In this document: positions 31,901-34,900 of the stretch, piece after piece
Position numbering within the stretch: the first letter of the stretch is position 1
How the letters are laid out: the number at the start of each line of letters is the position of its first letter
From: Escherichia coli O157:H7
Lineage (GTDB): Bacteria > Pseudomonadota > Gammaproteobacteria > Enterobacterales > Enterobacteriaceae
Assembly (NCBI RefSeq): GCF_013167455.1
Contig: NZ_CP038328.1
Strand: one strand, 5' to 3'
Length of the DNA stretch: 64,000 bases
Made by a program: the position numbers

Positions 31901-34900
31901 CCTCGCCATCCCACATTGCTGGAGCGAACAGGAGCGACGTTTTCGTGGATTTTTTATTACCCTCGCCCAACCAGTTGAGGTGAATAACGAAGTCATTAAC
32001 CATGTCTTGATCGCCTGCGCCGCCGCCGATGCGCGTCATGAGCTAAAAATATTTAGCTATCTGGCAAGCGTATTGTGTCAGCATCCGGCAGAAGTTATTG
32101 CCGGGCTAACAGGATATGAGGCATTTATGGAGTTACTTCACAAGGGGTGAACTGTGTCGGATGCGCCGCATCCGACACTGCATTTATCATCAAAAACGTT
32201 TAACGCAGGCTATTATAGTCATCAACCATTTCGTTGTACTCGCGTAACGCTCGTGGAAATGAGTCTTCGACCATCCAGCTTGTGTTTGCATCCTGAAGAT
32301 GCTCTTTATCCCAGTCAGAGTACGGGACTTTATCTCTGACGCGGCGAACATATTTTTTAGTCTCGAGTTGATACTGGTCTGCCGAATTAATGAACGAGAA
32401 ATTCATGCCGCCTTTATCCGCTTCTTTGGCCTGCGCCACCAGCGTTTCCAGTTCAGACACTTTCTTCATTGCCGCATCAACATCAAACTTCTCTTGCGAT
32501 ATCAGGTTATTAATTTGTTTCGCTGAAATCATGACTGCCAGAGAATAGTAGTGGAATGTTTTCCCTTCTCTTTCTTCAATATTTTTCAGTTCCGCAAGCT
32601 GGCGCTTATCATTAATTTCCTGAATCGCCGCATGATAAGATTCTGCTACAGGTTCAAAGGCTTCCAGATTTTTTAAGAATGTCTGGTGCAGCGTTTTCCC
32701 TTTCGCAAACGCATCGTCTTTATAATTTTCCTGGGTGTAATATTTATCCATTTCGTTAATGGTATTACCCAACGCCACGGCAGCATCGATATAACTCACC
32801 GCCACGCCATCAATTGGTTGCAGCGCAGGCGTTAACGCCACAGCACTTTTTACGCCTTTTTCACACTCAGCGAGGTTGGATTCACTAATGCCGTAGATGC
32901 CATAAACAGTACTCTCTTTACCGGTAGGCCCCTGTTTAAAATCTTTCAGCCAGTCAGCATAACGCGCCAGACTGCGCTGTACCGGGATCTGTAACTTGTT
33001 GTAGCACTTGATATAGACATCCATTTTTTCGTCGAAAACCGCTTGTTCATCGACCAGCGGTTGCGCAGGTGTTTCAGGTTTAGCATCTGCTTTTGCAACG
33101 GGAGCTTCAGTAGGTTTCGCTTCAGGAGCTGGTGCGGCAGGTTGACTATTGGCAGGCAGGGGCGTTTCTGTTTCGGCTTTTTTATCATCACAACCCGTCA
33201 GACCGAGGGCCATGATGGCGACTATAATAGCGGAAGATAATAAATTCCTTTTCATTTAATTGCCTTATAAATATATAGATAAGAGAGTGAACATAATAAA
33301 TGAAAAAAGAAAACGCCACTACACGCATTTTGTTTATAAATAAAATAATAAAATTCACGAAATGAATAAGTCCTGCAATTTAATATATATCGCAGGACTT
33401 ATTTTAATTAATTGCTCAAACGCTGCGGATGGGTATAAACCGTTGCCCGACCCGGTTTACAAAAACCTACCAGTGTCAGATTACAGCGCTCAGCCACTTC
33501 TACAGCAAGCGTGGTCGCGGCAGACACCGCAAACAAAATCTCTACGCCGCACATCGCCGACTTTTGCACCATTTCATAACTGGCACGACTGGAAACCAGT
33601 ACCGCACCTTGCTGCCAGCTTTCCCCTTCTTGTGACCGGCGGCCTAACAGTTTGTCCAGCGCCACATGGCGACCCACGTCTTCATGCCCGCCGACCAGTT
33701 CGCCAGATGGCAACATCCAGGCGGCGGCGTGAGTACAACCGGTCAGTTGTCCCACTGGCTGAAAATCGTTGAGATGACGTAATGCATCATCCAGTTTGTT
33801 GAGATCAAACGTCTGGGTGAACGGTAGCGGCTGCACCGGTTTTCCGATGTCATTAAGTTGCTCCACGCCGCATACGCCACAGCCCGTACGTCCCGCCAGC
33901 GCCCGGCGGCGCTCCTTCAACCCCATAAAGCGGCGGCTGGAAAGCTCAATTTGTACTTCAAGACCATTACAGGAAGGAACGACATCCATGCCGAAGATAT
34001 CGCGCGGACTTTCTATTATCCCCTCGGAAAGCGAAAAACCGAGCGCAAAGTACTCAAGGTCTTTGGGCGACGCCATCATCACCACATGCGAAATGCCGTT
34101 GTAGACCAGCGCAACGGGAACTTCTTCCGCGACCTCATCTAACCGTGGGTGTTGTAAATCATCACGCCGCCATAACTCAATTTGACGAACACCTGTGATA
34201 TTTGTCACATTTTCGATTTCTTTTTGCTGTGTTTTTTTCACTTTCTCTTAACCAGATAAGAACACACACACCAACATTATGGTATTCTGTTACAAACCCT
34301 TCCTGGATGGAGGGAAATTGAGCCAATTCTGGACCTTTGCGGCCCCTTCCGCAAAGAAAAATAACTCCCACTCCCTGCACACGCAGCAAGCGAATGTAAA
34401 TGGGACGTGACAATGTCGAAACAAGGAGCAATCCATGCAGGTCAGCAGAAGGCAGTTCTTTAAGATCTGCGCTGGCGGTATGGCAGGCACCACGGCAGCG
34501 GCACTGGGTTTTGCACCCAGCGTAGCACTCGCGGAAACCCGGCAGTATAAACTGCTGCGCACCCGCGAAACCCGTAATACCTGCACCTATTGTTCCGTAG
34601 GCTGTGGGCTGTTGATGTACAGCCTCGGTGACGGAGCAAAAAACGCCAAAGCATCTATCTTCCATATCGAAGGCGATCCGGATCACCCGGTCAACCGCGG
34701 TGCACTTTGTCCGAAAGGCGCTGGCCTGGTGGATTTCATCCACTCCGAAAGCCGTCTGAAGTTTCCGGAATACCGTGCGCCAGGTTCTGATAAATGGCAG
34801 CAAATCAGTTGGGAAGAGGCGTTTGATCGCATCGCCAAACTGATGAAAGAAGACCGCGATGCTAACTACATTGCGCAAAACGCCGAAGGCGTGACTGTTA

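What the first reader, a model, noticed from the sequence alone, without database searches (positions are those of the whole stretch)
33365..33403. Perfect 12-bp inverted repeat between fdhD and yiiG
aataagtcctgc...gcaggacttatt with a 15-nt AT-only loop lies a few nucleotides after the fdhD stop and about 110 nt upstream of the yiiG start. It is longer and more perfect than typical terminators in this window, so it could double as a protein-binding palindrome in the yiiG promoter.
Basis: seen in the sequence. Interest (0 to 1): 0.2.

Follow-up and report, generated by a model that had tools for sequence, protein, structure and literature searches.

The report
Stem-loop ending the fdhD transcript
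The perfect 12-bp inverted repeat just after the E. coli fdhD gene is real, but it is most likely an ordinary RNA stem-loop that ends or protects the fdhD message, not a protein-binding site for the next gene, yiiG.

Summary
The window is E. coli O157:H7. The loop is not AT-only; it has one C.

A perfect repeat of this size is expected 0.09 times per shuffled window. It is single-copy and present in 5313 of 5426 complete E. coli genomes.

Its build is terminator-like: A-tract, 7-bp GC-rich core, U-rich tail. The only other perfect 12-bp repeat in the window (62817-62846) has the same build.

Orthologous copies in E. albertii, E. marmotae and divergent E. coli keep the pairing through two compensatory changes and many G·U pairs. 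Those G·U pairs work only on the fdhD-sense strand. E. fergusonii and Salmonella carry unrelated hairpins at the same position. About a third of E. coli genomes lack the putative yiiG promoter yet keep the hairpin.

So structure is conserved, not sequence, which argues against a transcription-factor palindrome. The U-tract is mediocre. Published data place a bicyclomycin-sensitive (Rho) termination region about 31 nt downstream by my coordinate mapping.

Best reading: a weak intrinsic terminator and/or 3'-end-protecting hairpin, with Rho contributing. Ordinary, low interest.

The parts
33389..33403 (-). 5' arm of the sense-strand RNA stem (AAUAAGUCCUGCGAU).
   Evidence: Sequence; RNA fold with 15 bp, -19.9 kcal/mol
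33380..33388 (-). 9-nt A/U loop of the sense-strand hairpin. The spacer between the perfect 12-bp arms is 33377-33391 (15 nt, 14 A/T plus 1 C).
   Evidence: The loop sequence varies freely between strains and species.
33365..33379 (-). 3' arm of the sense-strand RNA stem (AUUGCAGGACUUAUU).
33355..33369 (-). U-rich tail after the GC-rich core (UUAUUCAUUUCGUGA). Its first 5 nt pair with the upstream A-tract.
   Evidence: TransTermHP-style tail score -3.92, top 1.6% of window positions. Conserved as UUAUUCAUU(U/C) in E. coli, E. albertii and E. marmotae.
33408..33410 (-). fdhD stop codon (TAA), 4 nt upstream of the hairpin
   Evidence: ORF list; RefSeq annotation of identical sequence
33334..33334 (-). 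Window position that corresponds, by my coordinate mapping, to the published Rho termination region coordinate in K-12 (NC_000913.3 4086923, + strand). It lies 31 nt 3' of the hairpin.
   Evidence: Adams et al. 2021, Supplementary file 2. The mapping is inferred from their fdoG 3'-end sequence and could be off by about 10 nt.
33293..33321 (-). Putative yiiG promoter. It has a -10 TATTAT (33298-33293). Seventeen nt upstream is a TAGTGGCG motif (33321-33314) that is also present upstream of Salmonella yiiG. This places the hairpin about 80-118 nt upstream of the predicted start. It is context, not part of the hairpin.
   Evidence: My reading of the sequence and of the comparison. The tool's promoter scan did not call it.

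Best explanation
The repeat encodes an RNA stem-loop on the fdhD-sense (- strand) transcript. When RNA polymerase passes the fdhD stop codon, the nascent RNA folds into a 7-bp GC-rich core (GUCCUGC/GCAGGAC). A/U pairs extend it to 12-15 bp.

The core is followed by a U-rich, weakly hybridising tail (UUAUUCAUUU). Part of the transcription stops there as at a weak, non-canonical intrinsic terminator.

Transcripts that read through are terminated by Rho a little further on, in or just past the AT-rich spacer. They would then be trimmed back to the hairpin, which protects the fdhD mRNA 3' end.

The net effect is to separate fdhD from yiiG, which has its own promoter downstream.

Shown: the structure, its position, its single-copy status, and conservation of its pairing with sense-strand bias. 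Inferred: that it actually terminates or stabilises, and the split between intrinsic and Rho-dependent termination.
For: 1. Anatomy. The hairpin starts 4 nt after the stop codon. Sense-strand folding energy is -19.9 kcal/mol (z = -5.7). The A-tract, GC core and U-rich tail match the build of the canonical bidirectional terminator at 62817-62846, which lies 18 nt after another - strand ORF. The tail score of -3.92 is in the top 1.6% of window positions.

2. Pairing is conserved, not sequence. Across 8 Escherichia variants 93% of cells are paired, against 28-43% when partners are slid. Two core pairs show double compensatory changes: G-C to U-A in strain 20, and C-G to U-A in E. marmotae.

3. 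Strand bias. There are 12 G·U cells on the sense strand and 2 on the antisense strand. The sense-strand fold is the more stable in 7 of 8 variants, for example -21.1 against -11.5 kcal/mol in E. marmotae.

4. Functional replacement. In strains and species carrying a 2-gene insertion after fdhD, fdhD gets a different, canonical terminator (ACCGCAAT...ATTGCGGTTTTATTTTT, tail score -5.41). The hairpin then follows the last inserted gene. E. fergusonii and Salmonella have unrelated hairpins of about -20 kcal/mol at the same position.

5. Independence from the yiiG promoter. The hairpin is kept in about 1,770 genomes where the match to the window stops short of the yiiG start. In the three examined, the putative yiiG promoter and N-terminus are deleted.

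6. Published data. Adams et al. 2021 (PMC7815308) list a Rho termination region on the fdhD-sense strand that maps 31 nt past the hairpin. Downstream/upstream reads are 59/89 untreated and 146/74 with BCM, giving a Rho score of 2.98.
Against: - The U-tract is mediocre: 5 U in the first 8 nt after the core, and only 4 of 8 after the full 15-bp stem.
- The loop is long, 9-15 nt. The simple terminator scan did not call the hairpin.
- No Term-seq 3' end is listed between fdhD and yiiG in the three conditions of Adams et al.. fdhD is weakly expressed there, so this says little.
- The BCM effect shows that a substantial part of termination here is not intrinsic. It could instead reflect derepression of yiiG itself.
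- The innermost pair of the perfect stem is broken on the sense strand in the JJ1886/ST131-type allele (C·A).
- The covariation sample is small: 8 sequences, with 17/500 and 42/500 shuffles reaching the observed values.
Confidence: 0.65

Rival explanations
1. A DNA palindrome bound by a dimeric transcription factor that regulates the yiiG promoter.
For: It is a perfect 12-bp palindrome with an AT-rich centre. It lies upstream of yiiG, about 80-118 nt from the predicted start (my reading of the sequence). The loop contains one half-site resembling the ModE operator (CGATATATA on the - strand; consensus recalled from memory).
Against: - Half-site sequences are not conserved. Changes are compensatory or G·U-compatible on one strand, and the outer arm is lost in strain 20.
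- Unrelated hairpins replace it in E. fergusonii and Salmonella.
- Half-site centres are 27 bp apart, unlike usual dimer operators.
- It is single-copy in the genome.
- It is retained where the putative yiiG promoter is deleted.
- There is no second ModE half-site, and the half-site is mutated in K-12.
- No published binding site lies on it.
Confidence: 0.04
2. A bidirectional terminator whose main role is on the + strand. It would stop antisense or spurious transcripts that start in the AT-rich yiiG promoter region before they run antisense into fdhD.
For: The + strand tail (UUAUUUUAAUUAAUU) scores better than the sense tail, -4.35 against -3.92. The + strand hairpin folds at -17.7 kcal/mol. 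The JJ1886-type allele favours the + strand.
Against: G·U pairs and folding energies favour the sense strand in 7 of 8 variants. The antisense fold drops to between -11.5 and -14.9 kcal/mol in the divergent orthologues. No + strand promoter-like site or gene was found upstream.
Confidence: 0.1
3. A neutral leftover: a palindrome in AT-rich, horizontally exchanged DNA at a recombination junction, with no function of its own.
For: The fdhD-yiiG junction is highly plastic. It shows a 2-gene insertion with a duplicated fdhD 3' end, a roughly 470-bp deletion, and an IS1 insertion inside the left arm in one strain. In many genera fdhD is not followed by this hairpin at all.
Against: Pairing is maintained through about 15-20% flank divergence, with compensatory changes and loop remodelling that lengthens the stem. 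It is present in 98% of complete E. coli genomes. The hairpin lies outside the insertion junction, beyond the fdhD 3' remnant.
Confidence: 0.15
4. Part of a yiiG leader, or a regulated attenuator. Transcripts entering from upstream would be stopped or passed at the hairpin according to conditions, coupling yiiG expression to the upstream gene.
For: The hairpin travels with the yiiG upstream region when the 2-gene cassette separates fdhD from yiiG. BCM triples the relative read density downstream.
Against: No alternative (anti-terminator) pairing was seen in the folds. No Rfam family matches. The co-travel is explained by simple contiguity, since an fdhD 3' remnant travels with it too. yiiG appears to have its own conserved promoter elements.
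Confidence: 0.05

Closest known systems
Rho-independent (intrinsic) terminators with complementary A- and U-tracts (bidirectional type), such as the one at window 62817-62846
   Same: A GC-rich stem-loop just after a stop codon on the sense strand. An upstream A-tract pairs with a downstream U-rich tract, which produces a long perfect inverted repeat. It folds on both strands.
   Different: The U-tract is interrupted (UUAUUCAUUU, against U6-U9). The loop is long, 9-15 nt against 4. Published BCM data indicate Rho-sensitive readthrough in this spacer. No mapped 3' end is available.
Protective 3' stem-loops of Rho-terminated mRNAs (Dar and Sorek 2018, PMC6061677; summarised in Adams et al. 2021, PMC7815308)
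   Same: A stable hairpin without a good U-tract lies close to a gene end, in a region with BCM-sensitive termination just downstream. The analogous hairpins in E. fergusonii and Salmonella lack a U-tract altogether.
   Different: That class is defined by a processed 3' end mapped at the hairpin base. None is reported here.
REP/BIME extragenic palindromes (one lies at window 32148-32182 between frvR and yiiG)
   Same: An intergenic, imperfect-to-perfect palindrome at gene ends that can stabilise upstream mRNA.
   Different: REPs are a multi-copy family with a shared consensus. This hairpin is single-copy and unrelated in sequence.

Membership tests
Intrinsic (Rho-independent) terminator | Stable GC-rich stem-loop in the nascent RNA, on the sense strand, downstream of the stop codon | tested here: met
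   7-bp core with 5 G-C pairs, extended to 15 bp. Folding energy -19.9 kcal/mol, z = -5.7. Starts 4 nt after the fdhD stop.
Intrinsic (Rho-independent) terminator | Run of about 7-9 U immediately 3' of the stem | tested here: inconclusive
   UUAUUCAU after the core has 5 U of 8, tail score -3.92, top 1.6% of window positions. Only 4 of 8 after the full stem, score -2.33. The canonical alternative terminator in other strains scores -5.41.
Intrinsic (Rho-independent) terminator | Short loop (about 3-8 nt) | tested here: inconclusive
   15 nt between the perfect arms, or 9 nt after G·U/A-U extension on the sense strand. The consensus scan, with a loop limit of 3-8 nt, did not call it.
Intrinsic (Rho-independent) terminator | RNA 3' ends mapped 7-9 nt after the stem; termination without Rho | tested here: inconclusive
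   I ran no experiment. Published Term-seq lists no 3' end here. Published BCM data show 3-fold more relative readthrough across this spacer. That argues against purely Rho-independent termination but could also reflect yiiG derepression.
Protective 3' hairpin of a Rho-terminated transcript | Rho (BCM)-sensitive termination in the region | tested here: met
   From the literature only: Rho termination region at K-12 4086923 (+), Rho score 2.98, p = 7e-7. It maps to window 33334 by my inference.
Protective 3' hairpin of a Rho-terminated transcript | Stable processed 3' end at the base of the hairpin | not testable with these tools
   No 3' end is reported in the accessible supplements. Supplements of other 3'-end studies are not held or do not mention fdhD.
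Palindromic transcription-factor operator | Half-site sequence conserved among orthologous promoters | tested here: not met
   Arms change by compensatory and G·U substitutions. They are replaced by unrelated hairpins in E. fergusonii and Salmonella.
Palindromic transcription-factor operator | Motif recurs at other regulated promoters | tested here: not met
   No other copy in the 64-kb window at up to 2 mismatches beyond chance. One locus per genome in 5313 genomes. The second BLAST place is the palindrome matching itself on the opposite strand.
Palindromic transcription-factor operator | Demonstrated protein binding | not testable with these tools
   Literature search found MarA and Dan sites only inside the yiiG ORF, and CRP and RpoN sites at the fdoG/fdhD side.
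ModE operator | Two inverted CGnTATATA half-sites separated by about 6-8 bp (consensus recalled from memory) | tested here: not met
   Only one half-site (CGATATATA, - strand, in the loop) is present in the sequence. It is altered in K-12.
REP/BIME repeat family | Many dispersed copies sharing a consensus | tested here: not met
   Single copy. No resemblance to the REP at 32148-32182.

The most novel reading that the evidence does not exclude
The hairpin could be a conserved sense-strand RNA element that acts as a leaky, Rho-assisted gate. It would set how much transcription from fdhD, or from the inserted 2-gene cassette, reads into yiiG. Alternatively it could define the 3' end of a small regulatory RNA derived from the fdhD 3' end. 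Either would make it a regulatory element rather than a passive terminator.
Probability: 0.06. Interest if true: 0.3.

Novelty: new member of a known kind. Interest (0 to 1): 0.1.

Why it matters
It matters little beyond annotation. If confirmed, it adds one weak, Rho-assisted terminator or 3'-end hairpin to the E. coli map and fixes fdhD and yiiG as separate transcription units.

It is a compact example of two general points. A long perfect palindrome can arise simply from an A-tract pairing with a U-tract around a short GC core. G·U asymmetry between strands can distinguish an RNA hairpin from a DNA-binding palindrome.

The more interesting biology lies next to it. The fdhD-yiiG junction is a hotspot where an uncharacterised 2-gene cassette comes and goes.

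Tried and rejected
- Rfam at a permissive E-value on 32900-33700 gave only noise matches, such as miRNA and snoRNA families with E > 0.5.
- The built-in terminator and promoter scan called nothing at the hairpin or on the - strand of the spacer. Its loop limit of 3-8 nt excludes this hairpin.
- My own window-wide scan for a hairpin plus a U-rich tail was swamped by GC-rich coding-region false positives. It was useless for ranking.
- ModE operator idea: only one half-site, so rejected.
- Published binding sites: MarA ChIP-seq and Dan SELEX hits named yiiG lie inside the ORF. CRP and RpoN sites lie at the fdoG/fdhD divergent promoter.
- Integration (att) site idea for the 2-gene cassette: rejected. 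The cassette boundary lies inside the last roughly 57 nt of fdhD, and the hairpin sits beyond the fdhD remnant.
- Searches for mapped fdhD 3' ends or a yiiG start site found nothing or the files were not held. The sources tried were Dar and Sorek 2018, Choe 2022, TERMITe 2025, SMRT-Cappable-seq 2018, nanopore 2022, Conway 2014 and Thomason 2015.
- A yiiG full-text search was mostly noise from an unrelated web address.

Full report
**Observation.** The window is E. coli O157:H7; a 601-nt query around the site is 100% identical to O157:H7 chromosomes. AATAAGTCCTGC lies at 33365-33376 and its exact reverse complement at 33392-33403. The 15-nt spacer AATTTAATATATATC has 14 A/T and one C, so "AT-only" is slightly wrong. 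fdhD (33408..34241) and yiiG (32200..33255) both lie on the - strand. The repeat begins 4 nt after the fdhD stop and ends 109 nt before the yiiG ATG.

Perfect inverted repeats of at least 12 bp with a loop of 20 nt or less occur at two loci in the window. Dinucleotide shuffles give 0.09 per window. Folded as RNA, the fdhD-sense strand gives a 15-bp stem with a 9-nt loop at -19.9 kcal/mol (z = -5.7). The + strand gives 13 bp at -17.7 kcal/mol.

**Anatomy.** The 12 perfect pairs are a 7-bp GC-rich core (GUCCUGC/GCAGGAC) plus 5 pairs between an upstream A-tract (AAUAA) and a downstream U-rich tract (UUAUU). On the sense strand the tract continues as UUAUUCAUUUCGUGA. Its TransTermHP-style tail score is -3.92, in the top 1.6% of window positions. 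On the + strand the tract is UUAUUUUAAUUAAUU, scoring -4.35.

The only other perfect repeat of this size (62817-62846, AAAAAACCTGCCA-N4-TGGCAGGTTTTTT) is a textbook bidirectional terminator. It lies 18 nt after another - strand ORF and has the same A-tract, core and U-tract build. So the unusual length of the perfect repeat follows from A/U-tract complementarity and is not a sign of something special. The built-in terminator scan missed the hairpin because it allows loops of only 3-8 nt.

**Recurrence.** The 12-mer does not recur in the window beyond chance. A 49-nt query finds the element in 5313 of 5426 complete E. coli genomes. The reported median of two places per genome is the palindrome matching itself on the opposite strand, as a local BLAST showed. 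It is therefore a single-copy element, not a repeat family or a regulon motif. Rfam has nothing.

**Comparative evidence.** In 80 species representatives of Enterobacteriaceae, fdhD is mostly followed by other sequence. That is often a small DUF1471/YdgH-BhsA-like gene with a conserved upstream region, and neither yiiG nor this hairpin. Where yiiG is present, I recovered its upstream regions:
- E. albertii keeps the same GC core, but its loop is remodelled so that the stem lengthens.
- E. marmotae has GUUCUGC/GCAGAGC, with one compensatory C-G to U-A change and one U-A to U·G change.
- E. coli strain 20 has UUCCUGC/GCAGGAA, a compensatory G-C to U-A change.
- E. coli AVS0756 has GUCCUGU/GCAGGAC, a G·U pair on the sense strand.

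On an 8-sequence alignment, 93% of cells are paired, against 28-43% when partners are slid. Two pairs show changes on both sides. The sample is small, with 17/500 and 42/500 shuffles reaching the observed values.

The wobble pairs are asymmetric: 12 G·U cells on the sense strand against 2 on the antisense strand. The sense-strand fold is the more stable in 7 of 8 variants, and markedly so in the divergent ones (-21 to -23 against -11.5 to -15 kcal/mol). That points to an RNA structure on the fdhD/yiiG-sense transcript, not to a DNA palindrome.

E. fergusonii and Salmonella carry unrelated hairpins of about -20 kcal/mol at the same position. The two Salmonella lineages differ by G·U to A-U type changes. 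Structure is conserved and sequence is not.

**Natural experiments.**
- Some E. coli (E2348/69, strain 20, AVS0756), E. marmotae, E. fergusonii and E. whittamii carry a 2-gene cassette between fdhD and yiiG. There, fdhD ends with different last codons and is followed by a different, canonical terminator (ACCGCAAT...ATTGCGGTTTTATTTTT, tail score -5.41). The hairpin stays next to yiiG, behind a diverged remnant of the last roughly 17 fdhD codons, and so follows the last cassette gene. A stem-loop follows the upstream gene in every arrangement.
- About 1,770 of 5,424 genomes match only the fdhD-proximal 65% of the 601-nt query. In the three I examined (UPEC 26-1, JJ1886, AVS0096), a roughly 470-bp deletion removes the yiiG N-terminus and the putative promoter but retains the hairpin.
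- These two alleles each carry a substitution at the innermost pair. One gives U·G and the other C·A on the sense strand, so that pair is dispensable.
- One strain has IS1 inserted in the left arm.

**Published experiments.** No paper discusses this hairpin. Adams et al. 2021 (PMC7815308) list a Rho termination region at NC_000913.3 4086923 on the fdhD-sense strand. Reads in the 800-nt windows upstream/downstream are 89/59 untreated and 74/146 with bicyclomycin, a Rho score of 2.98 with p = 7e-7.

I mapped their coordinates using their fdoG 3'-end sequence, which puts the fdoG ATG at 4085822. That places fdhD at 4086016-4086849, the hairpin at 4086854-4086892 and the Rho coordinate at window 33334, 31 nt past the hairpin. 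This mapping is my inference and could be off by about 10 nt. Their Term-seq tables list no 3' end in the spacer, which is uninformative at such low expression.

The same paper notes that Rho-terminated transcripts are usually trimmed by 3'-5' exonucleases. The data fit termination in this spacer that is at least partly Rho-dependent. They could also reflect derepression of yiiG when Rho is inhibited.

**Interpretation.** The best-supported reading (about 0.65) is an ordinary 3'-end stem-loop of the fdhD transcript. It would be a weak, non-canonical intrinsic terminator and/or a hairpin that protects the 3' end after Rho-dependent termination just downstream. Either way it insulates yiiG.

The transcription-factor palindrome idea is not supported:
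- There is no sequence conservation of the half-sites.
- The half-sites are 27 bp apart.
- The motif does not recur.
- The hairpin is retained without the yiiG promoter.
- No published binding site lies on it. MarA and Dan sites are inside the yiiG ORF, and CRP and RpoN sites are on the fdoG side.
- The loop has a single ModE-like half-site (consensus from memory). It lacks a partner and is mutated in K-12.

A role mainly on the + strand, a neutral relic, and a regulated gate into yiiG remain minor possibilities.

**Verdict.** The feature is real and non-random, but ordinary: a new, unremarkable member of a known kind. Interest is 0.1. The variable 2-gene cassette at this junction, a GHKL/HSP90-like ATPase plus a 768-aa TPR protein with no PADLOC system match, is the more interesting by-product.

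Noticed in passing
L086 6108-10251 (E. 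coli AVS0756); also L002, L003, L089/L090 (E. marmotae), L093 (E. fergusonii), L100. Absent from the window.: A 2-gene cassette is inserted between fdhD and yiiG in some E. coli and other Escherichia species. It encodes a 611-aa GHKL/HSP90-like ATPase (PF13589, PF00183) and a 768-aa protein with a weak TPR hit. On one side is an intact fdhD with altered last codons and its own canonical terminator. On the other is a diverged remnant of the last roughly 17 fdhD codons. No integrase was seen in the stretches examined. No PADLOC system matched, only a weak TmtA ATPase-domain hit. It may be an uncharacterised defence-like cassette in a hotspot.
   Followed up: partly
L004 1400-1660, L085, L088 (UPEC 26-1, JJ1886/ST131, AVS0096); corresponds to window ~32845-33315: A roughly 470-bp deletion removes the yiiG N-terminal ~138 codons and its putative promoter, leaving a DUF3829 pseudogene. 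By BLAST coverage, about one third of complete E. coli genomes have this type. The remaining yiiG part is only ~70% identical to the O157 protein.
   Followed up: partly
L087 ~330-412 (E. coli VG12A2): An IS1A element is inserted inside the left arm of the hairpin. Only the distal 37 nt of the 49-nt query remain.
   Followed up: no
window 33293-33321 (- strand): Putative yiiG promoter: a -10 TATTAT with a TAGTGGCG motif 17 nt upstream. The same TAGTGGCG-N17-(-10 TAAAAT) arrangement is present upstream of Salmonella yiiG, which suggests a conserved promoter or activator site. The tool's sigma-70 scan did not call it.
   Followed up: partly
window 32148-32182: A REP-like GC-rich palindrome (GTGTCGGATGC...GCATCCGACAC) lies between the convergent frvR and yiiG ends. 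Adams et al. list a second Rho region (K-12 4088219, + strand, antisense to frvR) that would lie about 160 nt past the yiiG stop by my mapping.
   Followed up: no
window 62817-62846: The only other perfect inverted repeat of at least 12 bp in the window is AAAAAACCTGCCA-N4-TGGCAGGTTTTTT. It is a canonical bidirectional intrinsic terminator, 18 nt after the - strand ORF 62864..63997.
   Followed up: partly
L023 3320-3660 (Salmonella diarizonae) and most Citrobacter, Klebsiella, Enterobacter and Kosakonia loci L011-L083: In genera where yiiG does not follow fdhD, fdhD is followed by a strongly conserved ~110-nt non-coding stretch (…GGCAAATCCTTCCGCTTTTAGTTG…TATTTATCACATCAAGGCACGGTGCCTTA…). After it comes a small secreted DUF1471/YdgH-BhsA-like gene. 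The conservation suggests a promoter plus structured leader. It was not analysed.
   Followed up: no
window 33362-33772 (+ strand): A 136-aa mechanical ORF starts at an ATG just before the hairpin and runs antisense through fdhD. Its first residues ([19 protein letters not shown]) resemble a signal peptide. There is no obvious ribosome-binding site, and it overlaps a conserved gene, so it is probably chance.
   Followed up: no
window 35023-35025: The fdoG reading frame is split by an in-frame TGA, between ORFs 34435..35022 and 35071..37485. This is consistent with the known selenocysteine codon of formate dehydrogenase-O, which I state from general knowledge.
   Followed up: no
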